A DNA stretch of 62,940 nucleotides, counting the filler, from Kipferlia bialata (Eukaryota), in assembly GCA_003568945.1 (NCBI GenBank). It is 5 parts of 4 records of this genome, joined end to end, with 100 filler letters (N's around TTAATTAATTAA, not from the genome) between each part and the next. Parts side by side here need not be neighbours in the genome. Positions count along the whole stretch, not along the records: positions 1 to 20,156 come from BDIP01000389.1; 4 more parts are not named here. The stretch is one strand, 5' to 3'. Numbering within the stretch: the stretch's first letter is position 1; the number at the start of each line of letters is the position of its first letter. Positions 1-38,341 of this stretch are shown here, piece by piece. The notes under the pieces were generated by a model. That model saw nothing but the letters and a program-made list of their open reading frames with translations, did no database searches and was not told the origin of the DNA. The translations under genes were made by a program, and so were the position numbers.

Positions 1-25
1 TATCTCTCTCTATACTCACTTACAG

Positions 26-338
26 GTGGCTACTACGAGGGTGACTTTGTGACTGGGTACATGCAGGGCACAGGCATCAGGGTCAACGTAGATGGATCTA
101 GTTATGAGGTAGGCTGTACATATATGTGTATAGAGAGAGAGAGAGACTGGGCACAGGCATCAGGGTCAACGTAGACGGGTCTAGCTATGAGGTATGGTAT
201 ATATATATATTGATAGAGAGAGAGAGAGAGAGAGAGGTTGTACATGCAGGGCACAGGCATCAGGGTCAATGTGGACGGGTCTAGCTATGAGGTATGGTAT
301 TATAGATAGATGTATATATATAATTAGTATATATATGT

Positions 339-377
<39 letters not shown>

Positions 378-547
378 CTGGGCACAGGCATCAGGGTCAA
401 TGTGGACGGGTCTAGCTATGAGGTATGGTGTCGTATCCATATATATATATATGTGCATATATTGTCTCTACTCTCTAACCCCAGGGCCAGATGAAGAGGG
501 ACGTCATGTCAGGCCAGGGAGTCATGAGGTAGGGAGGGTGTATATAC

Positions 548-590
<43 letters not shown>

Positions 591-2377
591 AGTCATGTCG
601 GGGCAGGGAGTCATGAGGTATGGGGAGTATAGGTCACTCTCTATCTCTCTCTCTCTATATACAAATACTAATCTCACCCCCAGATACTCTGATGGTGGCA
701 AGTACTCCGGTGCCTGGAGGGGGGGACTGTTCCACGGCAGGGGGAGGAGGTGTGTGTATGTATATTCAATAATGTGTATGTATTAGCCTCTCTATTAATC
801 CTCAGGTGGTACCCCGATTGCCGTATCTACGATGGAGATATATATCACTATCCAGAATATATCTATATGTGTATATACTTATTTGTGTTCTTATGTCAGA
901 TGGTACCCCGATGGCCGTATCTACGATGGAGAGTTCAGAGACGGACTGGAGGATGGACACGGGACACTAGTGGGTATGGTGTCTATTTGATATTCAATAT
1001 ATGTATATATGCTTATGTAGACACGTGCATGTGTATGGAGTTCAGAGAGGGGCTCGAGGATGGACATATCACTCTAGTGGGTGAGTTATTACATTGTGTC
1101 AATGTGTAAGTATGTATCTGTACACACACTTATCCCCAGGTGATGGCTGGGTGTGTGTGGGCACCTTCCGGACAGGCCAGCTGGATGGGGACGGAGAGGT
1201 ACAGTATGTATATATAAATATACATATAATACACTAATGCATATATACTTGTGTATAAGTGTGTACATTCAGGACAGGTCAACTGGACGGAGATGGAGAG
1301 GTGGGTGTATCTAAATTAAAACACCTCTGCGTAGAGTTGTGTACATTTAGGACATAATATCCTCTCACTCTTTATACTTACTCAAGGTTGAGTACAAGGA
1401 TGTGGGTCCAGTATATACACACCACATCTCTCAGTCTCTCTATGTGTATATGCACTCACTATCAGGTTGAGTACAAGGATGGCAGTATGTGGGTCAGTGT
1501 GTTTATACTTTCATATAGTATGTATACACATATATATATCCATATACATTATTCTTACCCATAGGTCGAGTACAAGGGACCAGGCAGTATGTGGGTCAGT
1601 ATGTTTATACTTTCACATAGTATGTATACACATATGTATATCCATATACATTATTCTTACCCATAGGTCGAGTACAAGGATGGCAGGCAGTATGTTGGTC
1701 AGTGGCAGGGGGGGAAGTTCCACGGATTCGGACGCATATCTTGGGGTGACGGTACTGAGTATGAGGTTGGCGTTATGTGGTGTATCTATTAGTATCTACT
1801 ACATACTCACTCGAAGGGTCTCTTCGATAGACAGTGCATAGTTACATATGCATAGTATATGTATGTATATAGTGCGTGTATTAGTGATATGGACAAATAT
1901 CGAGGGCCGCTTTGAGTAGGACCAACAGAGACAGGACATAGTAGCTTATTCATTGATTACTACTATACATATATATATGTATATATATAGAAATATATAT
2001 ATATATCACTCACTGTCAGGGCCTCTTTGAGCAGGGTCAGAGACAGGGCATGGGAGTACATAGACTAGCCGATGGAGGGGTGTATGAAGGTATAAGGATA
2101 TTGTTATTCATGTTCTTACCAGTAAATATGTATACTAACCTCTAGGCGAGCATGTCCAAGACATGTACCAGGGCCATGTACTCTCTCTCTCTCTCTATAC
2201 ATATATATATATATATGTATATACATACTTATTATCAGGCGAGCATGTGCAGGACATGTACCAGGGGCAGGGCATCAATATCACTCTCTCTCTCTCTCTC
2301 TCTCTCACTCTATCTATATTCCTATGTATACTAACTGTCAGGAGAGCATGTCCAAGACATGTACCAGGGCCGATGCA

Positions 2378-2430
<53 letters not shown>

Positions 2431-3664
2431 GTATATGTTTTCACACTAACCCCTAGGCGAGCATGTCCAGGACATGTACCAGGGCCAGGGCAGGTTCACA
2501 TGGCCCAGCGGACTGGTATTGGAAGGTACGTATATGTATACATACCTATATATATTGATCTCATTCTACACCCTTAATACCAGGCCAGTGGAGCATGTAG
2601 ATATATATATTTTTATGTGTGTGTATGTATATACCAGTGGAGCATGGGCCTCTCTCTCTCTGTATCCCTCTACACCCTTAACCCCTAGGCCAGTGGAGCA
2701 TGGGCGAGGCTAATGGCCAAGGCACTCTCAGATGGCCAACGGGGGTGGAGCTGACATCAATATGGGAGGCAAACAGGTACATACACACACATATATAGAT
2801 TTACATATAGTAGATAAGAATGTATGAATACCATAGTATGTATATAGTACATATGGGAGGCAAACAGGTACAGACGCATTTGTAATGATTTTCGTATTTT
2901 ATGTTCTTCTGACTCTCTACTCTTGTGACTGTATGTGTTCTTCTGACACCAGACCCGTTGGCTCTATCTATATATATATATAGGACTATTGACAGTATCA
3001 ATCTGACTCCCAGACCCGTTGGCTCTATCTATATATATATATATATATAGGACTATTGATAGTATCAATCTGACCCCCAGACCCGTTGGCTCTGGCAGGA
3101 AGATGTACCCAGACGGGTGTGTGTATGAGGTATGGTTGGCGTATAACAACTACACGAAATGATTGGAATATTTGTAGAATCGAAGAGGTTCCTTTGGATG
3201 TATTAATCAATCGGTGTTTTCGAATGTGTGTATTATTATTGTAATACGCAACACCCAAGAGGTATCTAGTCTCACATCCTAGGGAGAACTGACCAATGGC
3301 CACATCCATGGCCACGGGGCATATGTATATACTATGATGTATATATATACTATATACACACTCTCTCTCTCTATATATATAGTATATATACTCATCATTA
3401 GGGCGAGCTTACTAATGGCCACATCCATGGCCACGGGGCATTTGTATATACTATGACACATATTCTCTATGTACTTTCACTAAGTATATATATATACATA
3501 CAGTGTATATACTAACACTGCAGGGCGAGCTGACCAATGGCCACATCCATGGCCACGGGGCATTCTCATGGCCAGACGGCAGATTGTACGAGGGTATAGA
3601 ATATGTGGTATATATATATTGATAGAGAGTGTGTGTGTATCCTAGGAAGGAATATCTATATACG

Positions 3665-3701
<37 letters not shown>

Positions 3702-6182
3702 TATCATATCCATGGCCACGGGGCATTCTCATGGCCAGACGGCTGAGGGTAAGGAATATGTGGTAAATATATATGTATATATGTACAGAGAGAGAGAGAG
3801 AGAGTATCATATCCATGGCCATAGATAGCTACTATATATGTGTGTAGCCATGTTTCTTGATATTATCCACTCCAGTTTTCTCTAACCCCAGGCACCTTCA
3901 GGCATGGTGTCATTGATGGGGATGGCATCATGGAGTTCCCACTGCAGCCTGGCGTGGACTCAGGTAGATAGACTGTCTCTCTCTCTTTCTCTCTGTCTCT
4001 CTACCCTATAGGTGGTGGTCCTGTTGGTGTCATCTTCCTCTCTTTTTTTTCTCTCTCTCTCCCTCTACACCCTTACTATAGGTGGTGGCCCTGTCGGTGG
4101 TGTGGCTGTGTACAGGGGTGCCTTCAGAGACAACCTGTTTGAGGGCAAGGGGGTGCTGGAACTGCCAGACGGATCTTTGTATGAGGTACATCTATATTGA
4201 TACACACATAATAGTTGTATGTATTTGTATATATATTCATTTAGTAAAGGATCTCTATATGAGGTACCATAGATATGTGTATGTATGCATAGAGCGATTT
4301 GTGTGAATATTACCCCAGAGCGAGTGGAACTGTGGCAAGTACTACCATGTGTATCTATATCTATGTGTATCTCTTCGTATCTATTTGTGTATCTATTTTA
4401 TGGGTGTTGTATTCATTTCACCCATGGTTCCGATACAATATAGAATCAGTATGAATTCTATAGGAGATACTAACTCTTCAGGGCGAGTGGAACCGTGGCA
4501 AGTACTGTGGCCAGGGCACATTCAAGTGGGCCAGTACAGGCCAGATGTACACGGGTGAGTATCTTAGTCTCTCTCTCTCTCTCTCTCCCTCTCCCTAAAC
4601 TTCTAGGTGCCTTCCAAGATGGGTCTCTGTCTGGCAGTGACATGTTTATTAGACTCTGTCTATCGTGTGGTATACAAGTAATATATCGTGTAGTATACAA
4701 GTAATATATCGTGTAGTTTACCCCAGGTGCCTTCCAAGATGGGTCTCTGTCTGGCACTGGCCAACTGCTGTACTCATCGGGGGCAGCTATCCAAGGACAG
4801 GTACACAACATATATAGATACAGATATAGATTATATAGCGTATGGATGTATAGATATGGATTATTAGTGTATATGGCCAACTGCTGTACTCATCGGGGGC
4901 AGCCATACAGGGGCAGGTATCTATTGATACATGTTTATGATATATGTATACAGTGCATGTCTCTCTTCCTGTATGTATATACACGTGTATGTACACGTGT
5001 ATACCCATCTAACCCCTCAGTTCTCCAAGGGAGAGGTTGAAGGTAACGCCCAGTACACCATGCCCAGCCTGGCCATTCAGAGGTTAGTATCGCTAGTTCG
5101 AGATGTGTATATGGAATAGTGTTTTGTACACGTATATAACCATATATAGTATGCATTATATGGCAATTATACCCACCCACATCAGAGAGAGAGAGAGGAA
5201 GAAGCAGGGCCTAGCTCCCACCAAGAGGGAGGAGGGGGAGGGGGAGAGCGACGTGCGGTACTCGGTCAAGTACAGTGGCCAGTGGAAGGTATCTCATATT
5301 AGAATTGAAGGACGCTGAATACACTATTTACCCTTGGCCTCTCAGCGATTTTCTCTCCGCCCCCACTCTCTCTCTCTATATATATATTTACCCTTACCCC
5401 AGGCCTCCCAGCCCGATGGGACTGGTGCCTACTACTGGTGCGATGGGTGCAGATACGCAGGGCAGCTGGCAAATGGGCAGTTCGATGGGAAGGTATGATG
5501 CTATATATTATTTAGTATACACATATATGTATCAGTGTGTTCAATTATATGCGTGTGTCTGAATATACTTTCTATAGGCAGGGCAGCTGGCAAATGGGCA
5601 GTTTGATGGGAAGGTACACCACTAATTATGCTTACATGTATTGAGGAATACGTATGTGCAATCTTCTTTAACGGCTTCTTACCATGCAGAGCCGCCAAGT
5701 TGTTGGCTCCCGTGTGTATGTGGGAGAGTTCTCTAAAGATACACTGTATATATATACTAATTCCTTTTCTCTTCCAACAATAGGGCCGCCTCGTTGTTGG
5801 CTCCCGTGTGTATGTGGGAGAGTTCTCCAATGACATGGAGCATGGCAGCGGTAGCCTTCAAGATGGCACCGTTACCGTCGCTGGCAGGTGTGTGTGTATT
5901 AACATATACAATATATAGATGCATTGTGTGTGTATGTGTATACATATACCTATATGCCATGGAGCATGGGAGTGGCAGTCTGTAGGACGGGACTGTTTCA
6001 GTTGCTGGAAGGTATGTATACTATATATATACATATGTATATATATAGTGTACTATACCTGTATGACATGGAGCATGGGAGTGGCAGTCCGCAGGATGGC
6101 ACAGTCACTGTGTCTGGAAGGTATATTGAAGAGTACTCTTAGAGTCTGGTGCAAGTCAAGTCGATATACTATATATATATTA

Positions 6183-6215
<33 letters not shown>

Positions 6216-7096
6216 GTATATATACATATACTCTTACTGTAGGTGGGAGGGTGGTGACATTGTGGAGAGGGTGGTCAAGGTCAAGGACAGGGAGGAGGGG
6301 ACAAGGCTGCTAGAGGCCCTAAGTAGTACTGGAGGTACAGTAGTAGAGTATATATAGTATATATACTATACTATATACATGCTCTATGTATATGTCAAGG
6401 TCAAGGACAGGGAGGAGGGGACAAGACTGCTAGAGGCATTGAGCAGTACTGGAGGTTGTGTTCTGTGTCTTACAATGTTGATATTTAGAGATGTAGAGGT
6501 TCGTTGCCCCTTTATCATGCATGTCTCATGGCAGGCGTGACGGCGATGATGCCCCTGTTACTACTCTCTCTCACTCTCTTCCTCCCTATATATATATATA
6601 TATATATCTGATACCAGGAGTATCTTCAGCAGACACCTTTGGGGATGACTCCCCCCCTGTACACACACACACACACACTCTCTCTCTCTCCCCTCCTCCC
6701 CTCCCCTCACTATAGGTGTAACATCTGCAGATACCTTTGGCGATGACTCCCCCCCCGTGCACAAGGCCCATGCCAATCTGATGGATAGTGCCATCGATGA
6801 CATTGAGAGGTATATACTATACTATATACTATATATATATATACACATGTATATGAATGTGGGTATATATATACCGCAAGGCCCATGCCAATCTGATGGA
6901 TAGTGCTATCGATGACATCGAGAGGTATATACTATATACTATATATATACACACATGTATATGAATGTGGATGCCAAGGCCCATGCCAATCTGATGGATA
7001 GTGCCATCGATGACATAGAGAGGTGTGTATGTATATGTGTGTGGATGTGTATATTTTTCTATTCTCACCCAGGCACCATGCCTCCATTGACTCCAT

Positions 7097-7133
<37 letters not shown>

Positions 7134-7925
7134 TTTTACCTCACCCCCAGGCACCATGCCTCCATAGACCCCCTAGCCCTGATAGACAGACCCAGGGACA
7201 CTAGGTATATTCAGAAATATGTTCATGTTGATACATATATACATACTGTATATGATGTACTGTTTGTGGGTACACACGAGGTCAGGCAGACGCAGTCTCT
7301 CCCTCTCTTTCTCTTTCTCCATACATATACTGACCCTCAGGGGCACCGACCCCAAGACTGATGCAGAGGCCGTTGTATCTCTCTCTCTCTCTCTCTCTCT
7401 ATACATATGTATATCTTCATGTATATTCTATACACTGACCCTAGGGGTGAGACCAAGACTGATGCAGAGGCAGCTGTATCTCTCTCTCTCTCTCTCTCTC
7501 TCTCTACATATATATATATATATATGTATATCTTCATGTATAATCTATACACTGACCCTAGGGGTGAGTCCAAGACTGATGCGGAGGCCGCTGTCATCCT
7601 GTACAGTGACGGCAGATACTACGAGGTATGGATAATGATGAATATAGTATAGTATAGTATAGTATAGTATAGTATACATATGTATATGATATATGATATA
7701 TACACACATCTATGTATAGTGAGGCCGCTGTCATCCTGTACAGTGACGGCAGATACTACGAGGTATGTGTAATAGTGTATATATATAGTANNNNNNNNNN
7801 NNNNNNNNNNNNNNNNNNNNNNNNNNNNNNNNNNNNNNNNNNNNNNNNNNNNNNNNNNNNNNNNNNNNNNNNNNNNTAGAGGGAAGCCGCTGTGTCATTC
7901 TGTACAGTGACGGCAGATACTACGA
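26..7925 (+). repeat. Stacked partial exon copies in introns of the MORN gene
   Basis: Donor-side copies end at 191, 291, 422, 617, 1300, 6011, 6120, 6454, 6924, 7022. Acceptor-side copies start at about 806, 1387, 1466, 1565, 2146, 2239, 2342, 2953, 3014, 3283, 3402, 6618, 7341, 7445. Confidence 0.95.
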
Positions 7926-8792
7926 GGTATGCATAGTACAGATAGCGTGTTATCTATGTAGTGTTTAGCATAACTACTGAACCCGAATTGTCTCTCTCTC
8001 CTTCACCCTTTGACACCAGGGTCTTATCCTACACCCTTATTTCATATGCTACACCCTTATTTCATATGCTACTCCCTTAATACCATATCCTGCACCCTTA
8101 ATACCCAGGGTGAGGTTGGCCAGGGCGAGGGAGACCTCGATGGGGCCAGGGAGACACACCTCAGGCCTAAGGTATGTGTATTGAGTGATGGAACAAGCCT
8201 AAGGTATATATAGTTATGTACTGAGATAGTCTCCTGAATGGGTGCGGTGTGTTTCCAACCCTTTACTTCTGCACCTTAATGTCTCTCTCTCTCTCTTCCT
8301 CTACCCCCTTAATGTCAGGGCGAGGGTGTCATGTATGGCCTGGATGGAGGGGAGAGACACGTTGGCCTGTTTGGAGGAGATGACACAGACCCAGGTAATG
8401 ACTCTACACCCTTTTATCAGCACTCTACACCCTTTATGTACACCTACTGTACCCTTATACCAGGCACGCACTGTCTCGAGTACCCTGCTGACCCAGAGAT
8501 AGACCCTCTAGAGGCAGAGAGAGAGAGAGAGTACGCCGAGGAAGAAAGGGTCACTTTAGAGGACCAGAGCCATCTGGATATGGAGGGTGAGGGAGATATA
8601 GACGCCCAGGCAGACGGAGAGTGGGAGAGAGAGAGAATGGTGGGAGGTGAGTACCAGATCGACCTTGGACTGGATCTAGAGGAGGGAGAGAGAGATACCC
8701 ATGAGAGAGAGGAAGAGGATGAGGGAGATGGGGAGGTCAGTGATCTCTCCGACTCCTTCGAGGGAGACGTCACAGGGCTACCCAAGTACTAA
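26..8792 (+). CDS. MORN-repeat protein, many short exons, 5'-partial, acidic C-terminal tail
   Basis: GT-AG exons join in frame into MORN motifs: 26-108 GGYYEGDFVTGYMQGTGIRVNVDGSSYE; 485-528; 684-749 YSDGGKYSGAWRGGLFHGRG; 1667-1765 VEYKDGRQYVGQWQGGKFHGFGRISWGDGTEYE; 2457-2525; 3524-3593; ~4082-4185 YRGAFRDNLFEGKGVLELPDGSLYE. Last exon 8465-8792 is E/D-rich and ends in TAA. N-gap at 7791-7876. Confidence 0.9.
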
Positions 8793-12603: not shown

Positions 12604-13035
12604 TTACAATACATCTCTCACACCCTCATTACAGGTCCTCTTGTCCACTGCTGTCTCTTCCTCTTCCTGACTGTCTCTGCCATCTTGCCAGCTATCACAG
12701 CAATCAGCCACCCAAAGACAATGACTTAGCCTAGTGATGCCCAGTATATGTATAGTATATATATATGGTACATACCTCAATAATATATAATTATATATAT
12801 TATTGTATACCTTAGAAATATATTATTATATATCTAACTAAGCCTAGTGATACCCAAAGTGCAACTCCTACCTCTAGAGAACCCCAGCTAGAGGCAGGGG
12901 GCTCCAGATAACTGGGTAAGAGAGAGGAACCATGGGCACTTGAGGATATGTGTATATTGAGAGAGGGAGAGGGAGAGAGAGAACCCCAGCGAGAGGCAGG
13001 GAACCCCAGCTAGAGGCAGGTTGCTCGATGTACCT
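12604..13035 (-). pseudogene. Possible small gene remnant or unassigned exons with duplicated fragments
   Basis: Repeated fragments CCTGCCTCTAGCTGGGGTTC (12880-13020) and a pair TTG GGT ATC ACT AGG CTT / CTG GGC ATC ACT AGG CTA (LGITRL, synonymous differences). No full model could be built. Confidence 0.3.
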
Positions 13036-13374
13036 GGATGTGAGACTGGAGCGATGGGCATTTTTGTAGAGATATAGACTAAGAGCGGGTGAGGTAAAGA
13101 GAGAAATTAGGTTAGTTAAAGAAAGTATGGGTCCGAACACTTGCAACTCCACCAATGATGGACAGATCTCCGGAATCCACCTTCTATTCAAACTACAGAG
13201 GAATCCTCTACGATGACCCAAGACGGGAATAGCCAGACATATGAGAGTTGCCAACCGTCCTGAACGGTCTTTCCCACAGGTCAATCATGCAGTCGACTTC
13301 TGAGATAATCACACTTGTTCAAATGTGTTACTCTATTGTCTACTATGTGCTGATATCCGGGATTCAAAGTATCG

Positions 13375-15489
13375 CTAACAGTCTGTCTCAAGCTCTGCCA
13401 GCATCTCAGCCTCGAATGCAGCACACTCGGCCCTCACTCTCTCAAGGTCTTCTTCGGTCTCCACCTCCAGCTCCTGACATCAACTGTTATAGATATTTAG
13501 TATGTTCTAGTATACTATACACCCAGTATATAGTTTACACTGGGTTTTATACATATTGAGATTGAATTATCGACTTCTAGCCCATGATACTATTCGACAA
13601 TTCTTATTGTTTAGCATGAAAGAATATATCCTGTCTTCTTGGTATTCCGTTATAACAATGGTGAAGAAATATGAGTGTCCTGTGTCCAGGATATAGTATG
13701 CCCTACCGCTAGAAGCTGTTCCTCAGATACTGCGTTGATGTCTTGCTCCATCTCCTTCAGACTCTTGCTTGCCTCCAGGACGTCCAGAGACTCCTGTGTG
13801 TGAGGGCGTATCCTATGCATACGCTAATATAGTTTGACAGGCATCAGTGTGTGAATACATACTATTATGCATTATACATGCACTACTATATATATGTATG
13901 TCACGCATCTATATGTATTGGAATGTGTGTCACTACCATTTGACATGAATCCCATGTATAGACTGTACATGATACTTATGACCACAATATTAGTAGTATA
14001 ATAGTGTACTGCCGGACGGTAATCACACGTATACGTATGAGGTAGGTACTCATTTAGAAAGAAGGATGCAAAAGAGCCAGTCAAGAAATGACAAAGTGGG
14101 AGATTGGGAATCTTGGTGTATACCTGCAGCTTGTTGAGGTCCTCAGGCTCCATGTGTCTAAACACCAGGTCAAGTTGTCTGTAGCGCTTGACATAGAGCT
14201 GTTGTTACTAACAACTTGATAGTAGCAGAAGGTGAGACGTATATGGAGACGTGTTATGTCACCTTGGGGTCGGTTTCGCAGATGTCTGAGCCCGAAATCC
14301 TGCTGAACAGGCTGTAGTGAACGGGTTCCATCCAGTCCTCCAGCTGTCGTGAGTGGTATAAAGTAACATACGATTACCATGGAAATTGTAAATGCTATGT
14401 GACACATGTGAACCTGTGAATTGGTGTCAGAGGCCTACCTTCTCCTTATCGATAAGACTAATGTAAAAGAATTGAGTATTCATTGTTGTACACACATTCT
14501 TACGCCTCGTGGTAGATGTGAAGAAATTAATACCTTCTCGACACCCAGCATCTATCTATGTATAAACTCTCTATATATTTGTATACACTATGTTTACAAG
14601 TTCTATGGGGGTTCATATTCCCATAAGTAAAGGTAGATGTCTATATAATTACCTCCTCCTTGTCGACACCCGGCAGGACACGTAGCCTGGTGCACAGATC
14701 TATCACGAGCTGGGCTTGAGAAGTACAATCAATACGTACATACATAGATATTAGTAATTAGCTTATTGAACTTTGGTCACATATACATATACTTCAAATC
14801 TAAGATTTGGGAGTTAAAAAGCTCGTGTTTGTGTGTAATCTCAAACAGAGTATATGATCAAATAGAGTAAATGATACATATATGTATCCCGATTGGAGCT
14901 TGTATTGGAGAATAGAGCCACGAGCTAGGTAGATATTGACACATACATACATCTATTCACACAACTTTATATAGATTTGTTGATACGTACCTCGTGCATA
15001 TCCGGTCGTGACTCTGTTGTCCTGTACTTGAACGTGCGGTACTCATCCTTGTTTACGAGGATGTCAATCTGGATTATTAGGTGATTACAAAACACAGACT
15101 ACGAGTGGCAAACCAGAAATACTGAGTCAGTACTGTACTGAGATCACTTGACGAGGATGTCAATCTAGTAAATGAGATGATTATATGAAGACAGAGTATG
15201 AATTTCAAACGACTAGAATTAGAAAGGAGTATTGTGAATTAGTCACTCAGAATACTAATTTTAACAAACTAGTTAATATTAATTTATATATATATAGTAC
15301 ATCAGACGTATCTTGACCCTATGGCCAGTACAGAAGAGTATAAGTATACGTATCAAGGGAATTATTGTTAACGTAGTGTGGATAGTGTCATCTACTTGTA
15401 TGTTGTTGTTTACATCCCATCATTCATACACGTAGCGTGGATACATAGCGTGGTCCCTTTGGCTCCTCTGAAACACTTGGCACCCTGAC

Positions 15490-15520
<31 letters not shown>

Positions 15521-16376
15521 CATTTATACTCAGGTACCTCAAACGGCTCCTCATCCACGCTGGCCTCTTTATAGCAATATAGGCTATATATATGTGTATA
15601 TAATGGTGAATAACTATATACTTGCATACAATACCTCAAAGTGCTCCTCCTCCACCCTGGCCCTGAGGACACTTGAGAGGTGGAAGGACTTGGACACCTT
15701 TCCGTTCGCCTGGGGTGAGATAGATTAGTTTATGAATGTATATCAATGTGTGTATATTTGAATATGTATGTATATGTATATCAATGTAGGTATATTTGTA
15801 TGTACATGTATATATATGACAATGTATATGTGACTTGGACACCTTTCCATTGGGCTGGGGGGGTGAGACTCTGAGTAACACTATGCAAAAATTTCTATAT
15901 TATATATTCATATATACATATACGTATGAGCTACATAAGTAAAACTATACATGGGGAGGGGGGGGGGGGGGATTGCACACCGTAATTTCTACCTGCGCAG
16001 TGTATGGGAGTATACAGAGGAGATATACCATCAGGGAGTGGCGAATGTGGCATTGCTTGCGAATAGTATACAATTCCAGCAAAGCGTGTAGGACATTCAT
16101 CAGTCATAATTCACCCACCCTGGGTCGCTGTTCCCACTAGCTGCATACAGTTGTAGATACTTACACATATATGTCATTCCTACAGTGTGAAAGGAAGAAA
16201 AAGGAAAGCGAGACTTGTATATAGGTCTGAGAGTACACCACCTTGACGTGCTGAAGATGTGTCTCAGTTAGCCTCAGCACACGCTCTGTGTTGGGTGTAT
16301 CACCATCTTTGATACACACTACAGCGTATGAGGTGGCAGGGCTAGGCGCAACTACCACAGAGGTGGCTCCGGGCAT
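13375..16376 (-). CDS. Multi-exon protein with probable N-terminal PH-like domain and acidic helical C-terminus
   Basis: Exons: MPGATSVVVAPSPATSYAVVCIKDGDTPNTERVLRLTETHLQHVK / ANGKVSKSFHLSSVLRARVEEEHFE / IDILVNKDEYRTFKYRTTESRPDMHE / LVIDLCTRLRVLPGVDKEE / LEDWMEPVHYSLFSRISG.. / ESLDVLEASKSLKEMEQDI.. / ELEVETEEDLERVRAECAAFEAEMLAELETDC*. The PH call rests on strand/helix pattern only. Confidence 0.65.
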
Positions 16377-16594
16377 TGAAATATAGTAATATAGAGACAC
16401 TCAATATATGTGTCAAGACACTACACCCTTTGTCAGGCCGAATGTGGCAAAAACAACTATTACTCTACAACTACATCAATAGACGAAAATCATCACTACA
16501 TCACACATCTATTAACATATCGAGGCAATAGCAGTCAGTCACCAGCCTCTTTACAAGTTACAATCATATACCCACAGAGGTGAGCCTCAGCCTC

Positions 16595-19500
16595 TCAGCA
16601 TCTCAGCATCCAGTCATCTAGTTGTCTAGTCGTTGTGGGATCCAGGTCTTGACCCCCCATGCCTACCTGTACCCCCTGTGCTGTGCTCAAAGCGGACAAG
16701 CTTGGGCTTCTCAGAGCCTGAAGGTAAGGATAATAGATGCCTACTCTCTCTATATAGCTTGGGCTTCTCAGAGCCTGAAGGGGTAAAGGAGGTGGTATAT
16801 GAAATGTATAGAAGTATATATATATATACATGTCAACATCCAATATATACCTACAGAAGACTGCCTCTCTCTAGGGCTGGGCTCCTTGCTCCCCCTGCCA
16901 CTCCGGAGGTCACTCCTGCTGCGCTCTCTCATGCCCATCTCTCTCTCCCTCTCCCTGTCCCCTCCTCTGGCACCTGAGCCTCTGCTGCCAAGGGGGGGTA
17001 GACCTTCCATGCCTAGAGGTGAGGGTATATATACTCATATATTTGCCAATTCACGCCCAAATACAGAGAGAAATATATACACACACATATACGCATTTGA
17101 ACATATACATTTGCATTCACACGAAAACATATGCACGTATACTCACCTAGAGGCTCTCCACCGAACCTCCCCATGCCAGTCATGCCTCCACTGTTGCTAT
17201 ATGTAAATACATAAACATATATAGATATTCAATAATATAATAATATCTATATATAATACCTAATGGCTCTCCCCCGATCCCCCCCATGCCAGTCATCCCC
17301 CCACTGTCACTACATGTATACACGTATTCATATATACAATATATACAATCTATTCATATCTATATGTAATACCTAGTGGTTCCCCTCCTATCCCCCCCAT
17401 GCCAGTCATCCCCCCACTGGACCTGCCCCCCTGACCTCTGCCCCTGTCAGCACCCCGGCCCTTGGGCTTGACAACCTGACAGGTCAGTGATTATGCCTAT
17501 GCATATATATATATATATCTAGAGAGAGAGAGAGAGGTACTGCCCCTATCAGCACCCCGGCCCTTGGGCTTCACGACCTAGGGGGGAAGACACATAGTAT
17601 GGTGTGTAAATACACTACATATATATAGAGAGAGAGAGAAAGAGAGAGAGACTGTTCTGTCACCACCCCTGCCCTTGGGCTTGAAGACCTAAGGGTGAGA
17701 CATATGGTACATGTACACTCACATATATATTGAGAGAGAGAGAAAGGAGAACCTGATGTAAGGGAGAGAAACTACATACACACACATATATACATGCTAT
17801 ACCTGCATCACCCCTGCGTTTGGTCTGCGGCTGAAGGTCTTGTTGTAGTTCTCCTCTCTGTTCTTGAGCTCTGGTGGTTAGACATATGTACATCCGTAGA
17901 CATCTTCACATATCTAATGTATTCACACCCAAACACCCACTCACACAAATATATATATAAATACATACACTCTATCCACGCACCCAGCTTGTAGAACCGC
18001 ATGTCGGACACTGCCTGCTCCAGCATCCTGTCCTTCTCCTCAACCTCGCGGCGCAGTCTGGTGTTAGATGCATGCAAAGAAGACATTGTATATTAATAGA
18101 TGATACAGTATCAAGAGGGACGTTGTATGTGTAGAGAGCAGCCTGTCCTTCTAGTCAACCTCACGGCGGAGTCTAGGGGGTCAGATATACATAAAGGCTA
18201 AGAAATAGGGACCCAATACGCATACAAGTACGCTATACAGGGAGAATACGGTACAAGCATATATTGACGAGAGACCACGACTATACATACGTCACACATC
18301 CATACCTCCTGACCATCTCCAGATCCTCAGGTCTGCTCTCCCTGTCGGCATAGCGGAGCTCCCACTCCCTAGGGGGTTAGATTAGATGGAGGAATCATAC
18401 TCATACACATGCATACAGTCAAGTGTACACATACACACGGAGACCACTCTCCATGGGGTCAGGGATGACACTATACATGGACCCCTCATATAGAGAATGT
18501 ATGAACTACAATGTCAGTGTACTACATATACACACCTGATGTCTACCCTGAGTGCCCTCTCTCTCTCTCTACTAAACATGACATACGTGTACACACCATC
18601 TATATACGTATATATATATATGTATATTCACTATTCTCTGTACCTGATATCTGCTCTGAGTGCCCTCTCTCTCTCGGCAGAGGCCTCTCTGGCAGTCACA
18701 GCGGCCTGGGATGGGAGGGGGGTAGAAGTACATATGTACATATCTCTAGAACAGGCCTCTTAGACAGCAAAAGACAAGGGTGCAGAGAGAGAGAGAATGC
18801 TGTGGAAGTGGCCTGGGATGGGGGGGTATGACTGGAGAGAAAGACTATGAATGACAGACAAAAAATGCATTCCTTGTGGATGTATTTCAAAATAAGTATA
18901 CAGTACACCTGCTACAGTGCTTCCGCTGCCCGTATGTACTCTCTCTTTCTCTGTCTCTCTCTCTCCCCCCTCCTATACATCCATATATCTATATCTATAC
19001 ACATATACCTGCTGCAGTGTATCCACTGCCCCTGTGTACTCTCTGTTGATGGAGTCTAGCTCGGCCTCGTGCTCAGCAAGGAGTCTGTCGATCTGCCGGG
19101 TTAGATACTCACGGTATTTGACCAATAGCTAATACACTATAGATCTACTAAACAATACGCCATAGATATAATGAACTTCCTGCTGGCTCTGTGACATGAA
19201 TACACTCAACGAGTCAGAATATATAGGAATGACTATACCCACTAGAATATTGAGGCATATACTATCCATACCTCCTGCTGGCTCTGTGACATGAGGGCCG
19301 CCCTCTCCTCCTCCAGTTGGAGTCTGGGGGTGAGAGATACATCTAAACATTGAGCAACTATATGTTGTTGTTGTGGCATAGAGAGGGGTTGTCCCTTGCC
19401 CTAGGCATATACCTATACATATATATATGTACATAGTGTCACACCTTGCTCTTGCGAGTGAGTCATCCAGCTCAGACACCCTGTTGGCATGGGCACGCAC

Positions 19501-20100
19501 ATCGACCTGGGGGTAAGAAGTATAATACATATGCTAATGTATGTACAACATGTATATGTGTATATATGAGTCGTACCTCCAGTCCGTTGCATCTGAGCTC
19601 CAGGGCTCTCTTCTGCTGAGAGAGACGGGCCTTGTCCTAAGAGGTTAGGGGGTACACTATATGTATATATATGTATATATACAGAGTATATACGTATGGA
19701 TAGTGCCCTCTTCTGCTGGGACAGACGGGCCTTGTGGCCTGGGGGTGAGGTAGAGGATATGATATATCGATGTATAAATATGGTATATAGTATAGTGTGT
19801 CAATAAGATAATGTCTATATATAGTACATTTTGCTTTTATACTAAAGACTGTTCTATAACCTGGTTGAGCGTGTCCATACCAGCATAGGCACATATATAT
19901 ACACAAACCCATATATATACAGGTATATACTATTCTAGAGTACATCCATGCAAACACACTGTACCTGGTTGAGCGTGTCGATATCTCTGCGGCACAGCTG
20001 GACCTGGGGGATGAGTGATGTTGTATATACATAGCCACTCATACATACATATCCACTATACCTGCCCCTCTGCCTCCATCTTGAGGTTGATCTCAGAGGC

Positions 20101-20152
<52 letters not shown>

Positions 20153-21062: not shown

Positions 21063-24000
21063 CTAGTAGTACCAGAATGGTACCACCATGAGAGTGGTGG
21101 TGGACACTGCCATACCGACCAGGACGTTGGAGGCGTTACTATCCGTGACGCCATCATCCCCGGCATAGTACCTCGTACCCGGGGCCATAGGAGTGAGTCC
21201 ACTGCCACTCATATCAACCAGGCCTCCCATGGTGGTGACTGTAAGTGTCTCGCTGTCCATGACATCAGCTGTTGCAATGCCAATGTACACCCAGTCGCCG
21301 GTGTTCAGAGTAGTACTAGCACAGAACACAGTATCCGTGGGGCAACTGGTGACCAAGGTACCATCTAGAGTGAGGGAATATCACGGGCCCTATCAATACA
21401 CAATAGAGATCTATATGCTGAAATACATTAGAGTATCTGACACTAAAGATGAATGAATGAGTAAAGATGAGTAAATAATATATGTCTGTGTACAATTCCA
21501 GATGCTGCTTAGTATCGAGCACTCTGTACCTAAATCGAAGAACACTGGGTAGTACTGCTTAATGTCCATCTTGGCAGTTCCCGTGATAGTGAAGGCGGAG
21601 CTCGAACTTGCGGATGCATCTGCCCATGCCACTGTTCCACTGTCATCAGACAAGGATAGGACCTGTCCCTCTGTGCCCTTGGCGGCAGGCAGTGTGTATG
21701 CGCTACCCGAGGCCCCTACTGACACACCGTCAGTGCCGCTGAGAGACAGCACACCGTCAGAGGAGAGAGAGGACTNNNNNNNNNNNNNNNNNNNNNNNNN
21801 NNNNNNNNNNNNNNNNNNNNNNNNNNNNNNNNNNNNNNNNNNNNNNNNNNNNNNNNNNNNNNNNNNNNNNNNNNNNNNNNNNNNNNNNNNNNNNNNNNNN
21901 NNNNNNNNNNNNNNNNNNNNNNNNNNNNNNNNNNNNNNNNNNNNNNNNNNNNNNNNNNNNNNNNNNNNNNNNNNNNNNNNNNNNNNNNNNNNNNNNNNNN
22001 NNNNNNNNNNNNNNNNNNNNNNNNNNNNNNNNNNNNNNNNNNNNNATGTTAATGCCGTCCGGGGTGTAGTAGGAGACACCCGCAGTGGCGAAGTCAGAGA
22101 AAGGGCCTGCTCCCCCAACTAGCGTAATGGAGCACTCCACGCCCCACAAGCAGGTAGAGGCTGCGATACCCACAAACTCTCCTGACTGTTAGGACAAGAG
22201 GCATACACTCACTGTAGTGTATAATATATAAATGTATATATATATAGGACTGAGGATGTAGATGAGGATACCTACGTTATCTGGGAACATGTCCGTTGTG
22301 AACACACACTCCTCAAAGTAGGTACCAAAATCACAGACAGCTCCAATGGTCCCTGGGGGTTAATACATTAATTAATTAATACATACATAATTAATTAATT
22401 AATACTGATGGCCTACATGTTATAACAGCAGTAATTGGTATAGCTGCCTATAATTCTTGGACAATACAGACTAATACAGCATTCTCACCACAGACTGATA
22501 GCGAACTTACCCTCTTTCACGAACACAGGGGCGTACTCGTTGATGTACTCATTGGGACTCTGGGGAGTGTAAGTCGTCGTGTAGGTTGGTGCTCCGTCTG
22601 TGCTCCCACTTGCTGCATCTGCCCATGCTACTGTACCACTATCGTCAGAGAGAGACAGGACCTGGGGGTGAGAGGTGAGGGAGACACTAGCTGGGTCAAT
22701 GGAGAGAGAGAGAGAAAGATTCTAGACACGCACCTGTCCCTCTGTGCCCTTGGCGGCAGGTGAATATATATATACATACATATATATCCATATATACACT
22801 GTAGCCTAGGCCACAGTAGTAGTATTCACCCACCTGTCCCTCTGTGCCCTTGGCGGCAGGCAGTGTGTATGCGCTACCCGATGCCCCTACCGACACACCG
22901 TCAGTGCCACTGAGAGCGAGCACACCGTCAGAGGAGAGGGAGGACTGGGTAGAGGAGTTGGCGATGGTGAGGGCCTTGTCTCCGGCAGTCTCTGACTCTA
23001 CAGTGACCTGACTAGGTGCCACAAGATGCAGGGTATCAGACGTGGGGCGCAGATAGCTGTTGTCCTCAGGTCCCGTGACTAGAAGGCCCCCAGTTGAGGT
23101 GCCGACACCGAGCTTCATCACGCTTCCAGTAGCGTCAGCCTCAGTGAGGATCTGGACCTTTCCGTCCATAACCCCAGCGTAGTAGGTCTGGCCGGACTCC
23201 ATCATACCCGCCGCAACACCGCCAATCGCAATAGCCACGCAGTCCACTGGAGCAAATTCACCAATGCACTCAGCATTGGCAATACCCAGGAACTCCCCTG
23301 GATATAAGCGCCAACTGCTAAACGTAGTGCATGGGATAGGGACAAACCAGGACAGGAGACGGGCAGTATATAGAGGCAACAGAAGAGATGACACCAACAA
23401 AGTACACACCTACACTGCCAGGGAACTGCGAGGTTGTGAAGGCGCAGCCGGTATCACAGACAGATCCAATGGTGGCTAAATGTGAGAAGAAGGAAGCATC
23501 AGTATCCAAAGAGTCCACTTACTGAGTCAAGTGAGACGATAACATTCTTGCCAGTGACAGCGACCAAAGACTAGACACTATCGATATATATATATATATA
23601 TACATATATATAAATACACTTACATCCGGATTTGAATACAGGAGCGTCTGCCTCGACGTTAGATCCCAAAAGCTCCCATCCGGTCAAATATGAGGTTGGC
23701 CCTGCCTCTGCACCCCCTGATGCCGCATCTGCCCATGCTGCAGTGCCACTATCGTCAGAGAGAGACAGGACCTGGGGGTGAGAGGTAGGCAGAGGGGTGA
23801 GGGGGGTATATAGTGATTATCACTATCATCAGAGAGGGAGAGGACCTGGGGTGAGGGTGGGTACACCATAGCAATTAGAACCACTGTAACACAAGGAATA
23901 TGAAATGCATACGAGACTAACCTGGCCTTCGGTACCCCTAGCAGTGGGCAGGGTGTAATTGGACCCAGAAGCACCGACGGACACGGCCCCAGAGACAGCA

Positions 24001-27000
24001 AGAGTGTCACTGAGGGTAGCTGCCCCAGTGACGCCAAGTGTGCCCTCGAGGACGGTTGCACCTGACACGGAGAGGTCCCCAGTGACATCTACGTCTACAA
24101 AGGTGGAGAGAGGGGCAGCTACCATGAGCTCCGTCTCAGAGATAGCCACACCCACCAGTACCTCTGACTCTGTCGTGGAGTACGTCCCATCTGCTGCGGC
24201 ATAGTAGATAGCACCCATAGTCAGACCACTTGTGCTGATGGTACCACCGGCACGGGTAATGGTCACAGTCTCACCGCTCTCAAGGGTCACGCTGGAGATG
24301 CCTGCGTAGACAAGAGTACCAGGGGCAGCCAGGGCTTCGGAGAGGGTGCCGTAGGAGCAAAACTCGGCATCCGGTGTACATACAGACTCCCAGGTGTCTG
24401 GGTGTAAGTGATGACATGCTGTAATGGTAGAGGATCTCTAAGTGATGATGACAGAGGGCAACAATGAACATATATACAACCCATGGGAATTTACACTCAC
24501 CGTCTGTCAGGTTCCTGAACACAATGTGTCCTTCCTTGACAGCGCCAAGTATCTGACCCGAGAGGGAGTTTGGAGACGTCCACCCAGTCTGGCCAGTCCC
24601 AGTGACACTGAGTACCTGGCCGTTAGTGGATGTTGTTATCGCGTAGAAATTGACGAGTTTGAGCAGCAACATGTTGGTATAATTGACGGTAGAGAGCTGA
24701 CATAGTATTTGGGTGAGATAGACTCTTACCTGCCCGTCCTCGCCTACTGTAGTAGGGAGTGTGTAGGAATCTGTATCAGACACAGAGACAGCGACTCCGT
24801 CAGTGCCGCTGAGAGACAGCACACCGTCGGAGGAGAGAGAGGACTCTGTGGCAGAGTTGGCGATGGTGAGGGTCTTGTCTCCGGCAGTCTCAGACTCTAC
24901 AGTGACCTCCTTGGAGGCCAGTAAGTGCAGAGTGTCAGATGTAGAGCGCAAGTGGCTGTTGTAGTCTGGTCCTGTGACCAATAACCCCCGAGAGCTTGTA
25001 CCGACACCCAACTTATACAATGACCCCAGGCTATCAGACTCTGTGCCAGTGTTGGCAAATACAGAGGTGCCGTCTACAGTGTAGTATGTCACACCATTGG
25101 ACCAGTCCTGCCCACTGACCACTCCCCCTACTAGTGCAACCACACACTCGTCATGGGGATTGCACTCCATGGTGGAGATACCAAGGAACTCCCCTGTAGG
25201 TTAGTGCAAAGTGTGGCAAAAGGGGTAGCGTATCCAACACATCCATGGCTTAACACTTGCGGACTCACCTACGTTGTCTGGGAAGTCATAGTCCTTGAAC
25301 AGACAGTCAGAGCCAACGGAACCCACAGCACCAGGAGTGCCTTCTGGTAGTGAAACTGCAAAGTAACACGAGACCTAAAGAGAGCATGCAGCAGAACTTA
25401 CCTCCATCTTGCATAAACACTGGCGAGTTCACTGGGATATACTCCATCTCAGGAAGAGTCCAAGTCATCGTGTAGGTGGGCATCCCTGCATTGTCGGCAT
25501 CTGTCCAAGATACGTTCCCATTGCCGTCTGAGGCTGTGAGAACCTGGGAGTGAGGGGAGTGGGGTGGCCGCGTTGATGTGAATACTAGTCTATGTAAATG
25601 GAACGAGGATAGCCCATCGGTTGCCATACAATACAAATATGAAAATATGCAATACACCACCAACCTGTCCTGCTGTGCCTCTAGAGGTAGGGAGTGTGTA
25701 GGATGACTCCCCCCCACTGATGGTGAGTGTGTCTCCCACGGTCACACTGGCAAAGGCATTGGCAGGCTCTATCAGCTCCAGAATGGTGCTGGAGATGGGC
25801 ACACCGAGAGGGACAGAAGTGGGCATCTGAGTAGGCGAGGCACTATCCTCGTTGGCGTAGTATATCTCTCCAACAGTGAAGCTGGTGTTCATCTTGATGA
25901 GGCCACCTGGGGGTGTCACTCTACACGTGGAGCCAGACCCACAGGCCTCAGAGGCCATACCAACGTACTCCACCCCGTCAGCAAGGGCGGCAGTGAGAGT
26001 GCTGTAGGCACAGCTGTCGCTACACACAGACACCATGTTGCCTGAGAGTCAAAAGGATAGGAAGCCACAAGACAGAGTATATAGAACAGACACCCATACG
26101 TACCCCCGCTGTTCCTAAACACAGCACTATTAGCCTCGATGGCCCCGGTAGCTGTCTCGTAGATGAACTGCAGATTGGCATCTGGTCCCGTGATGAGAAG
26201 GGCCCCACTAGATGTACCGATACCGGCCTTGATCACTCCAGTCTCTTCAAAAGTAGCACCATCGTCAGAGACGTAGTATGTCAATCCGGTCTGCAGCATA
26301 CCCAGCCCGACACCACCAATAGTGGTAATGGGACAGGTACTGTCAGGAGGACAGTCAGACGCCGCAATGCCAATGAAGCGGTCGACATTGGCTGGGAAGT
26401 CGTCCGCATCGAAGACACAGTCAAAGCCTCCGAATGATGTAGTCGCTCCACACACAGTGCCGTAGTACACGTTCTCACCTGGGTCAGTGACTTCTATCTA
26501 GAGGGGCACAATGAATATATTTCGAAATGGGTGTTACCTTGACCCCTTGCGAACACGGGTGCATCTGCAGAAATACTATCAATGGGACCAGTCATAATCT
26601 CGCCCTCAAATGCATCTGAGTTGCCAGCTGGGTCAGCCCAAGCGGCACTACCCGTATCGTCAGACAGGGTGAGAACCTGGGTTTAGAACTACATCGCATA
26701 TTGTGACCGAATATACACGATCATTGCGGCACGATGAGATATCACAACACAAGATACCTGTCCGTCTGTGCCTCTGGTAGTAGGTAGGCTGTACGAGGTT
26801 CCTGTGGCACCAACGGTAACAACACCAGTGACGGCCAGAGTCTCGCCCACAGTAGCAGCCTTGGTGACGTCTAGGTTGTCGCTAAGAGTAGTGACCCCAG
26901 TGACAGTAAGAGNNNNNNNNNNNNNNNNNNNNNNNNNNNNNNNNNNNNNNNNNNNNNNNNNNNNNNNNNNNNNNNNNNNNNNNNNNNNNNNNNNNNNNNN

Positions 27001-32912: not shown

Positions 32913-32944
<32 letters not shown>

Positions 32945-35449: not shown

Positions 35450-35500
<51 letters not shown>

Positions 35501-38086: not shown

Positions 38087-38341
38087 GGAGGGAGAGAGAG
38101 AAAGAGAGAGAGAGAGGCGCACTCACTTACCAGGTCCAGGTCTGTCTCGATATTCTGATATACAGATGTCTATGCATATATATATTCATATAAATAGAGA
38201 AAGAGAGACTCACTTACTAGGTCCAGGTCTGTCTCGATATTGATATATATATATATACATATGCATATATATATATTCAAATACATATATAGAGAGAGAG
38301 GCCCACTCAGAGAGAGAGAGAGAGACAGGCACACTCACTTA

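What the first reader, a model, noticed from the sequence alone, without database searches (positions are those of the whole stretch)
26..7625. Intronic stacks of partial exon copies that differ almost only at synonymous sites: a possible exon-end replacement / allele-capture system
Seen: most MORN exons have 1-3 truncated copies of themselves in the adjacent introns. In seven clean hand-aligned sets, all 27 variable codons in the alignable cores are synonymous. Exon 26-108 vs copies ending 191/291/422: aac/aat, gta/gtg, gat/gac, gga/ggg, agt/agc. Exon 485-528 vs ~592-617: tca/tcg, ggc/ggg. Exon 1140-1198 vs 1268-1300: cgg/agg, ggc/ggt, cag/caa, gat/gac, ggg/gga, gac/gat. Exon 2457 vs 2146/2239/2342: 4 codons. 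Exon 3524 vs 3283/3402: 4 codons. Exon ending 6334 vs 6394-6454: agg/aga, gcc/gca, cta/ttg, agt/agc. Exon ending 6809 vs 6924/7022: gcc/gct, att/atc/ata. These sets were selected; others carry a few replacements (D/E, S/T, G/C) or stops. Established: dead duplicates mutate mostly at non-synonymous positions. Inference: each copy diverged while under coding selection. One model is repeated one-ended recombination with divergent alleles, which installs a new exon end plus intron flank and displaces the old one into the intron. That would leave an archive of earlier alleles and drive intron growth. I know of no description of this.
Basis: partly seen in the sequence, partly recalled or inferred. 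Interest (0 to 1): 0.93.

Follow-up and report, generated by a model that had tools for sequence, protein, structure and literature searches.

The report
Captured allele ends pad protist introns
In this intron-rich microbial eukaryote, 50 of 116 modelled exons are flanked by unused half-copies of themselves that differ from the working exon mostly at silent codon positions, likely because DNA repair copied exon ends from very different alleles and left the old ends behind in the introns, which would point to hidden sex and to an undescribed way for introns to grow.

Summary
Real and window-wide. I found 88 partial exon copies at 50 of 116 modelled exons, on 4 of 5 joined contigs. Each is a ~100-bp unit: exon end, its splice site, intron flank. 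DNA contigs bridge junctions with no mismatch at uniform depth; a spliced RNA contig fits MORN exons 1-19 with no copy included. "Almost only synonymous" is overstated: 123 of 195 distinct differences (63%). That still beats a dead duplicate (simulated 40-44%); pN/pS is about 0.15-0.21, and 0.10 between sibling copies. New evidence: the copies' intron flanks are nearly unrelated to the live flank (65% vs 57-59% control) yet keep working-strength splice signals (GT 41 of 41). So exon end and flank diverged while functional, then died recently. Best reading: one-ended homologous repair from a divergent allele, finished by end joining, with selection keeping only products that leave an intact exon. 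It is a mutational by-product, not a dedicated system. No donor allele was found, and the organism (candidate Kipferlia, recalled) is unverified. The scan earlier noted similar echo copies in sea urchin DNA, where dead duplication sufficed (43 of 107); it does not here.

The parts
26..8733 (+). MORN-repeat gene, 26 modelled exons, 721 codons without stop; 5' end lies before the window
   Evidence: Pfam MORN on exons 6, 13, 19; exons 1-19 fit RNA contig 9 of run X2 in length
149..422 (+). Three donor-end copies of exon 1 (26-108): 149-191, 240-291, 380-422, each followed by GT; 13 codon differences, all synonymous
584..617 (+). Donor-end copy of exon 2 (485-528)
806..1080 (+). Exon 4 (900-973) with acceptor-end copy 806-838 and donor-end copy 1038-1080; bridged by one DNA contig 673-1564
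1250..1300 (+). Donor-end copy of exon 5 (1140-1198); clean core 1268-1300
1387..1600 (+). Three acceptor-end copies of exon 6 (1667-1765): 1387-1402, 1466-1499, 1565-1600; the last has a flank identical to the live one (recent same-allele duplication)
1905..1944 (+). Decayed acceptor-end copy of exon 7 (2020-2089), mostly non-synonymous differences
2146..2371 (+). Three acceptor-end copies of exon 8 (2457-2525): 2146-2176, 2239-2274, 2342-2371; four mutually different acceptor flanks
2584..3026 (+). Copies of exon 9 (2689-2776) at 2584-2597, 2634-2649, 2851-2867 and of exon 10 (3081-3129) at 2953-2965, 3014-3026
3283..3821 (+). Exon 11 (3524-3593) with acceptor-end copies 3283-3322, 3402-3442 and downstream copies 3705-3751, 3808-3821
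4012..4916 (+). Copies of exon 13 (4012-4029), exon 14 (4319-4343) and exon 15 (4607-4639 upstream, 4874-4916 downstream)
5574..6120 (+). Copy of exon 18 (5574-5613); copies of exon 19 (5784-5887) at 5690-5739, about 5954-6011 and 6063-6120, with two three-state synonymous codons
6394..7094 (+). Copies of exon 20 (6394-6454), exon 21 (6618-6665, 6877-6924, 6975-7022) and exon 22 (7073-7094)
7352..7926 (+). Copies of exon 23 (7562-7625): 7352-7376, 7445-7477 upstream; 7721-7762, 7882-7926 downstream (an N gap lies between the last two)
13374..20110 (-). Two further short-exon genes (predicted models) with 4 and 11 copies of the same kind
22734..29220 (-). Large repeat-protein gene (predicted): 8 copies around its short exons at 27.8-29.2 kb, 2 more at 22734-22760 and 23821-23845
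31452..37854 (-). Lipase-class-3-like gene (predicted, 24 exons modelled) with 13 copies
38131..42304 (.). Two more genes (predicted) with 2 and 6 copies, among them two copies of a last exon's stop-codon end in the 3' flank (42163-42205, 42260-42304, + strand)
46657..55123 (+). Single copies at 46657-46689 and 55079-55123 in long-exon genes

Best explanation
The introns hold ~100-bp tandem units (exon end, splice site, intron flank) that the RNA contig leaves out, and these are likely former working exon ends, displaced when a DNA break inside the exon was repaired from a strongly divergent allele. Steps. (1, inferred) A double-strand break falls in an exon. (2, inferred) One end invades the other allele; only exons are still alike enough to pair, since allelic introns look near saturation. 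(3, inferred) Synthesis copies the rest of that exon, its splice site and about 70 bases of the donor's intron, then stops. (4, inferred) The extended end is joined by microhomology-type end joining to the untouched other end of the break, so the old exon end with its old splice site now sits in the intron. (5, shown as a pattern) Only products with one intact exon survive, so donor-end copies lie only downstream and acceptor-end copies only upstream. (6, shown) The exon that has both splice sites is the one spliced. (7, shown as a pattern) After displacement the copy decays neutrally, for about 0.03 changes per site so far, against about 0.2 silent divergence brought in at birth. Out-of-register exchange between array-bearing chromosomes likely adds sibling units. 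It is a mutational by-product plus a selection filter, not a dedicated system; it likely needs repeated contact with very diverse alleles, that is outcrossing.
For: Polarity: 39 of 39 donor-end hits downstream, 36 of 36 acceptor-end hits upstream (20 other hits internal). Silent excess beyond a dead duplicate: 123 of 195 (0.63) vs 0.40-0.44 simulated through the same seed detector; third-position difference rate 17.3% vs 4.8% and 2.6%. Changes private to one copy are 31 silent of 47; sibling-versus-sibling pN/pS 0.10. Silent and non-silent divergence per copy are uncorrelated (rho -0.13, p 0.32), so silent divergence is not a clock of dead time. Flanks: 65% identity to the live flank vs 57-59% for unrelated introns; 5 of 78 at 88% or more; the 7 copies with an identical exon part of 20 nt or more have flanks at 36-76%; 7% divergence would give 92%. 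Those divergent flanks keep GT in 41 of 41 and AG in 38 of 41; donor motif score 1.79 vs 1.69 live and -0.58 random; acceptor 2.84 vs 5.54 live, -6.97 random, -1.06 if decayed by 45%. Non-synonymous differences look neutral: 5 stops of 61, mean BLOSUM -0.96 vs -0.40 random. No tandem units in 7,571 bp of intergenic DNA. 10 of 22 multi-copy sets hold three silent haplotypes. Precedent for invasion, extension and Pol-theta joining giving tandem duplications: PMC13031629 (passages). If the organism is the fornicate Kipferlia (untested), its listed kit fits: Dmc1 and Spo11 and PolQ present, Rad51A and Ku70 absent (PMC8516963 section 8 and Supplementary Data 2 rows); Dmc1 stabilises mismatched heteroduplex (PMC6719624 abstract).
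Against: No donor allele seen: the DNA run shows one other-letter row in 6,300 bases, and two metagenome scans found no relative. Outside the MORN gene the ratio is weaker (0.26, interval 0.15-0.51 at kappa 4) and those gene models have no RNA check. No age order along arrays. Siblings often share the inner breakpoint to within a base or two and 12 of 26 sibling pairs share junction-side sequence, which independent captures would not give; a second process is needed. Junction microhomology is weak (35% vs 24% identity in the 8 bases beyond the core, and this may be leftover homology). Only 4 three-state codons, so many donors versus few is not settled. In the worm precedent the homologous chromosome did not contribute. 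One haplotype cannot show which member is the newcomer.
Confidence: 0.5

Rival explanations
1. Born divergent by the opposite geometry: an unequal, microhomology-joined crossover in a heterozygote joins one allele's intron to the middle of the other allele's exon, so the incoming piece is the copy and everything beyond it is from the donor.
For: Predicts the same polarity, silent excess and divergent but intact flanks. Unequal crossing-over in heterozygotes is the proposed origin of mosquito heterogeneous duplications (PMC6121789 passages).
Against: It has no homologous step, so it does not explain why units sit at exon ends and not in intergenic DNA (0 in 7,571 bp), although divergent intergenic copies could be unrecognisable. 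The strand-symmetric GA/CT tracts at junctions fit synthesis running outward from the exon.
Confidence: 0.17
2. Old ordinary tandem duplicates whose exon-like part is refreshed by short gene conversion from other alleles' working exons while the flanks drift apart.
For: Explains shared sibling breakpoints, low pN/pS and unrelated flanks. A few units are plainly same-allele duplicates (5 of 78 flanks at 88% or more).
Against: Dead flanks diverged by about 45% should have lost their splice signals (simulated donor score -0.66, 30% of dinucleotides intact); observed 1.79 and 41 of 41.
Confidence: 0.12
3. Same repair route, but the donors were homeologues or paralogues from a past hybrid or polyploid state, since lost, not alleles of an outcrossing population.
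For: Silent divergence near 0.2 with saturated introns is high for alleles (my knowledge). No second allele at the locus now. Only 4 three-state codons.
Against: 10 of 22 sets hold three silent haplotypes, and some arrays hold three or four mutually unlike splice flanks, more than two parents supply without mosaics.
Confidence: 0.1
4. Dead-on-arrival tandem duplicates; the silent bias comes only from the live exon being protected.
For: Explains polarity and the neutral-looking non-synonymous changes; 16 of 17 exon-specific changes are silent. An earlier scan note reached this verdict for sea urchin copies.
Against: Predicts a silent share of 0.40-0.46 and pN/pS near 0.5; observed 0.63 and 0.15-0.21. 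Predicts flank identity near 92% at this age; observed 65%. Predicts copy-copy ratio of 0.5-1; observed 0.10.
Confidence: 0.04
5. The copies are still used at low level (alternative or recursive splicing, or silent cassettes converted into the exon), which keeps them coding.
For: GT intact in 41 of 41; donor motifs as strong as live ones.
Against: Copies have one splice site only; stops and frameshifts occur; the RNA contig fits exons 1-19 exactly with no other letters (contigs drop rare forms). Conversion frequent enough to protect the copy would erase the silent differences (inference).
Confidence: 0.04
6. Assembler stitching of haplotypes from a mixed or heterozygous culture.
For: Short-read assembly with many microsatellites; units are about one read length; the DNA run may be the source of the window, so it is not independent.
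Against: Independent k-mer contigs cross 13 of 31 junctions with no mismatch at the same depth as unrelated contigs (350-480), and no second haplotype lies on the exons.
Confidence: 0.03

Closest known systems
Tandem duplications begun by homologous recombination and finished by polymerase-theta end joining (C. elegans tnsl-1; PMC13031629, passages seen)
   Same: Head-to-tail direct duplication; proposed route of invasion, extension, release and end joining.
   Different: There both copies came from one haplotype and the homologue did not contribute, in a repair mutant. Here the two members look divergent from birth, units are about 100 bp, sit on exon ends and fill about 38% of intron DNA in what appears to be a natural genome.
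Heterogeneous gene duplications (mosquito insecticide-target loci; PMC6121789, passages seen)
   Same: Two already divergent alleles placed in tandem on one chromosome; divergence precedes duplication.
   Different: Those are whole loci, both copies work, they are few and selected. These are half-exons, silent, mostly synonymous and present at many exons.
Human F7 intron 7 37-bp minisatellite with donor pseudo-sites (PMC1557585, abstract seen)
   Same: Repeat unit spans the exon-intron boundary; functional downstream donor copies stay silent because the first donor is chosen.
   Different: F7 pseudo-sites are identical in sequence, at one locus, donor side only. Here flanks are nearly unrelated, both splice ends are affected, and exon parts carry coding-type divergence.
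Tandem exon duplication giving mutually exclusive exons (recalled)
   Same: Exon-like copies in the neighbouring intron with silent-biased differences.
   Different: Those are whole exons with both splice sites and are expressed; these lack one site and are absent from the RNA contig.
Silent-cassette archives for gene conversion such as vlsE or pilS (recalled)
   Same: Partial, untranscribed-as-protein copies of a coding stretch kept beside the expressed one.
   Different: Cassettes diversify amino acids at one surface locus under selection; here differences are mostly silent, in unrelated genes, and the copies decay.

Membership tests
Recombination-initiated, Pol-theta-completed tandem duplication | Direct head-to-tail duplication with one novel junction | tested here: met
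   junctions in DNA contigs
Recombination-initiated, Pol-theta-completed tandem duplication | Microhomology or templated insert at the junction | tested here: inconclusive
   35% vs 24% identity beyond the core; junctions are aged and the donor is unknown
Recombination-initiated, Pol-theta-completed tandem duplication | Both copies from the same haplotype | tested here: not met
   flank identity 65%, only 5 of 78 near-identical; silent excess
Recombination-initiated, Pol-theta-completed tandem duplication | Genetic dependence on polymerase theta | not testable with these tools
   PolQ is listed for the candidate organism; organism unverified
Heterogeneous duplication | Members derive from alleles that diverged before the duplication | tested here: inconclusive
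   sequence signatures fit; no donor allele found
Heterogeneous duplication | Whole locus duplicated and both copies expressed | tested here: not met
   copies average 31 nt of exon; RNA contig uses the whole exon only
Exon-boundary minisatellite (F7 type) | Unit spans the exon-intron boundary and only the exon-proximal site is used | tested here: met
   82 of 88 copies reach a splice site; RNA lengths fit exons 1-19
Exon-boundary minisatellite (F7 type) | Units near-identical, intron part included | tested here: not met
Mutually exclusive duplicated exons | Complete exon with both splice sites, included in mRNA | tested here: not met
Silent-cassette conversion archive | Amino-acid-changing variation with reading frame kept | tested here: not met
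   63% silent; stops and frameshifts present
Introner or transposon-derived intron expansion | One repeated element shared between unrelated introns | tested here: not met
   self-comparison shows only microsatellite matches between distant introns

The most novel reading that the evidence does not exclude
In this lineage, mismatch-tolerant repair from highly divergent alleles is so routine that displaced exon ends are the main recent source of intron DNA (about 38% here). Each intron then stores several former alleles, so one homozygous genome records a population with about 20% silent diversity and repeated genetic exchange, in a group (if a fornicate with Dmc1 but no Rad51A or Ku) where sex has hardly been observed.
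Probability: 0.5. Interest if true: 0.88.

Novelty: new variant of a known kind. Interest (0 to 1): 0.76.

Why it matters
It would be an undescribed, quantised mode of intron growth, and a way to read allele diversity and cryptic sex from a single genome. It makes testable whether a eukaryote that repairs with Dmc1 alone uses divergent homologues as routine templates. It is also a natural panel of dozens of strong but silent donor and acceptor sites 60-100 bases from the used ones, for asking how a reduced spliceosome defines exons. Practically, such copies can mislead gene prediction and read mapping.

Tried and rejected
No whole genome is held, so all counts are for this window. Reads could be laid on 1-6300 only; exons 20-26 and all other genes have no read or RNA check. 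No RNA holder was listed as such; run X2 is a guess, though its contig is spliced. Other isolates: none. Protein searches to place the organism found only the window's own protein or nothing. 'Old exon split in two around a new one': upstream and downstream copies abut within 5 nt in 4 of 12 exons, p 0.05 or 0.32 by null; not supported. Fixed tract length: copy length and flank length barely trade off (rho -0.17, p 0.11), so ~100 bp may be set by splicing limits. Faster turnover of the splice-side than the junction-side flank among siblings: means 0.705 vs 0.698; not supported. Live exon as consistent outgroup to its copies: not seen (flank copy-copy 0.64, live-copy 0.68). Age order along arrays: not seen. 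RNA-templated repair: rejected by reasoning, as it copies the same allele and spliced RNA lacks flanks. Dropped before counting: 4 of 95 seed hits (3 coding repeats across an N gap, one 11-nt internal hit); 3 more were merged, giving 88. One short ambiguous gene at 12.6-13.1 kb was not modelled. Literature searches (listings only unless named elsewhere) returned no description of this pattern; the library lacks most subscription papers. The candidate organism's genome paper has no occurrence of 'duplicat', 'allel' or 'heterozyg' in its main text; its supplements were not read. The arrest of synthesis at GA/TC tracts is recalled; one search gave listings only.

Full report
Setting. The window is five records joined by N-flanked linkers at 20157, 30515, 37947 and 58175. 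It is from an intron-rich eukaryote with short exons and TA/GA/CT-rich introns. From memory this resembles the free-living fornicate Kipferlia bialata, whose genome paper gives 49.4% G+C, 124,912 GU-AG introns and a k-mer hint of diploidy (PMC5874029, parts 1-3 of 6 and passages). My protein searches did not place the organism, so this stays a lead. No whole genome is held.

Gene model. The MORN gene runs 26-8733 in 26 exons, 721 codons without a stop; Pfam confirms MORN on three of three MORN exons sent (two above the curated cut-off). One spliced contig of run X2 lies on eight exons with no other letters, and the record distances between its pieces equal the summed lengths of the modelled exons between them (110, 59, 139, 191 and 209 nt, then adjacent). 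So exons 1-19 are used as modelled and no copy is included. Ten further gene stretches were modelled by a splice-site and codon program with hand correction; they have no RNA check.

Is it there? A frame-blind ungapped search of each exon against its flanking introns gave 73 hits where 0.34 were expected from foreign introns. The full scan gave 95 hits; I dropped 4 and merged 3, leaving 88 copies at 50 of 116 exons, 40 of them at 19 of 26 MORN exons, on 4 of the 5 records. All 39 hits that reach an exon's donor end lie downstream and all 36 that reach its acceptor end lie upstream; 20 were internal at that stage, and after gapped alignment 82 of 88 copies reach a splice site. Two copies of a last exon's stop-codon end lie in its 3' flank, so the process is not tied to splice sites as such.

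Is it real DNA? In run X1, eight long contig pieces match 1-6300 with no other letter, at depth 450-482 (one short piece 307), like unrelated contigs caught by microsatellites (about 350-480). They cross 13 of 31 inner junctions with 31 or more bases a side; only the longest pieces were listed. One other-letter row appeared in 6,300 bases, so no second allele is seen here. The run may be the source of the window, contigs break at long repeats, and whole arrays are not spanned, so long reads are still wanted; but stitching cannot create junction words at full depth.

How silent? With frame-blind trimming, 123 of 195 distinct differences are synonymous (MORN 66 of 97, others 57 of 98); difference rates by codon position are 4.8, 2.6 and 17.3%. 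The fair null is a duplicate dead from birth beside a live exon: silent share 0.37-0.46 by formula and 0.40-0.44 simulated through the same seed detector. pN/pS is 0.15-0.21 with exon-bootstrap upper bounds of 0.22-0.32; MORN alone 0.14 (0.06-0.22), other genes 0.26 (0.15-0.51), which touches the null. Changes where the exon differs from identical siblings are 16 silent of 17; changes private to one copy are 31 of 47; sibling-versus-sibling pN/pS is 0.10 with pS 0.24. Silent and non-silent divergence per copy do not correlate. The non-silent changes look neutral or worse (5 stops of 61; mean BLOSUM -0.96 vs -0.40). This is a two-phase history: long divergence as coding DNA, then about 0.03 changes per site as dead DNA.

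The flanks decide most. The 25 intron bases beside a copy's splice site match the live flank at 65%, against 57-59% for unrelated introns; 16 of 78 exceed the control's 95th percentile and 5 of 78 reach 88%. Seven copies with an identical exon part have flanks at 36-76%. Simulation puts 65% at roughly 45% substitution, while 7% would give 92%. Yet GT is intact in 41 of 41 and AG in 38 of 41; donor motifs score as high as live ones though half their positions differ, and acceptor motifs are weaker than live ones (p 0.0007) but far above decayed or random sites. A flank that differs this much and still carries its signals diverged as a working intron end. That rejects same-chromatid duplication for most units and weighs against old duplicates refreshed by conversion.

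Size and effect. Successive units are 102 bp at the median (SD 23, n 87); each copy adds 94 bp to its intron (r 0.79); copy-free introns have a median of 113 bp, copy-bearing ones 291. Units make up 7,968 of 20,774 gap-free intron bases. None was found in 7,571 bp of intergenic DNA. The length may be set by splicing limits rather than by a fixed tract.

Mechanism. The best fit is a break in the exon, invasion of a divergent allele by one end, copying through the splice site into the donor's intron, and end joining to the other end. Invasion, extension and polymerase-theta joining is the model for tandem duplications in worms, where the homologue did not contribute (PMC13031629 passages). All fornicates examined lack Rad51A and Ku and hold Dmc1 (PMC8516963 section 8); its Supplementary Data 2 lists four Dmc1 entries, Spo11 and PolQ for K. 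bialata and no Rad51A or Ku70 (rows seen). Dmc1 stabilises mismatched heteroduplex (PMC6719624 abstract). These support the route only if the organism is a fornicate. Selection explains polarity, since any product without an intact exon is lost (inference). Silence of the copies fits exon definition (inference); silent downstream donor copies are known from human F7 (PMC1557585 abstract). GA tracts precede donor-type junctions (7 of 45, CT 0) and CT tracts follow acceptor-type ones (11 of 42, GA 1), from only 4 and 7 exons; 8 of 9 intronic GA tracts sit at such a junction. On both sides the strand extended outward from the exon would end in GA repeats; this fits the geometry but is unexplained.

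What does not fit. No donor allele or other isolate was found. Siblings often share the inner breakpoint and sometimes the junction-side sequence, so not every copy is an independent capture. Distal copies are not more decayed than proximal ones. Abutting half-exons are not significant. Ten of 22 sets hold three silent haplotypes but only 4 codons have three states, so a hybrid or polyploid past is not excluded.

Novelty. The parts are known: repair-made tandem duplications, heterogeneous duplications (PMC6121789 passages) and boundary-spanning repeats. Their combination, at exon scale, at 43% of modelled exons and as a large share of intron DNA, was not found in eight searches. The scan's earlier notes report similar echo copies in sea urchin DNA explained by dead duplication at 43 of 107 silent (unchecked note); the same null fails here.

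Noticed in passing
window 20157, 30515, 37947, 58175: Four identical N-flanked linkers join five separate records; gene context across them is not real.
   Followed up: yes
window 31741-31755 (-): A 15-nt in-frame chimeric mini-exon (first 5 bases of one exon, last 10 of the previous one, with acceptor and donor) made by a 232-bp duplication spanning a whole intron; a possible route to new exons and introns. No RNA check.
   Followed up: partly
window 42163-42205 and 42260-42304 (+): Copies of a last exon's end in the 3' flank; one ends in its own stop codon one codon later than the live gene.
   Followed up: partly
introns of the MORN gene and of the gene at 16.7-20.1 kb: Sense-strand GA tracts occur in 0 of 57 copy-free introns, and 8 of 9 such tracts lie right before a donor-type copy.
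   Followed up: partly
window 42719-56271 and 22276-26881: Long-exon genes (TPR, PARP-like, repeat protein) carry few or no copies (0-2 each), while short-exon genes carry up to 1.6 per intron.
   Followed up: no
window 1464-1703, 2942-3093, 6762-7024, 7325-7594: A minority of units have near-identical flanks: recent same-allele duplications on top of the divergent class.
   Followed up: partly
window 32468-32748 (-): Two sibling units share 28 junction-side bases with one difference but have unrelated donor-side flanks; unexplained by single capture.
   Followed up: partly
window 12876-13030 (-): A short gene with two internal copies of its second exon's sequence in the first intron; frame ambiguous, left out of all counts.
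   Followed up: no
window 53352-53594 (+) and 57332-58099 (-): Two PARP catalytic-domain genes on one record; the second found no relative but itself in a protein search of similar lengths.
   Followed up: partly
window 21000-30300 (-): A very large secreted-looking protein of internal ~300-residue repeats in which an intron position recurs in each repeat; no Pfam match on the exon sent.
   Followed up: no
window 58500-60867 (+): Intronless ORF with pentapeptide-like repeats (by eye, not searched).
   Followed up: no
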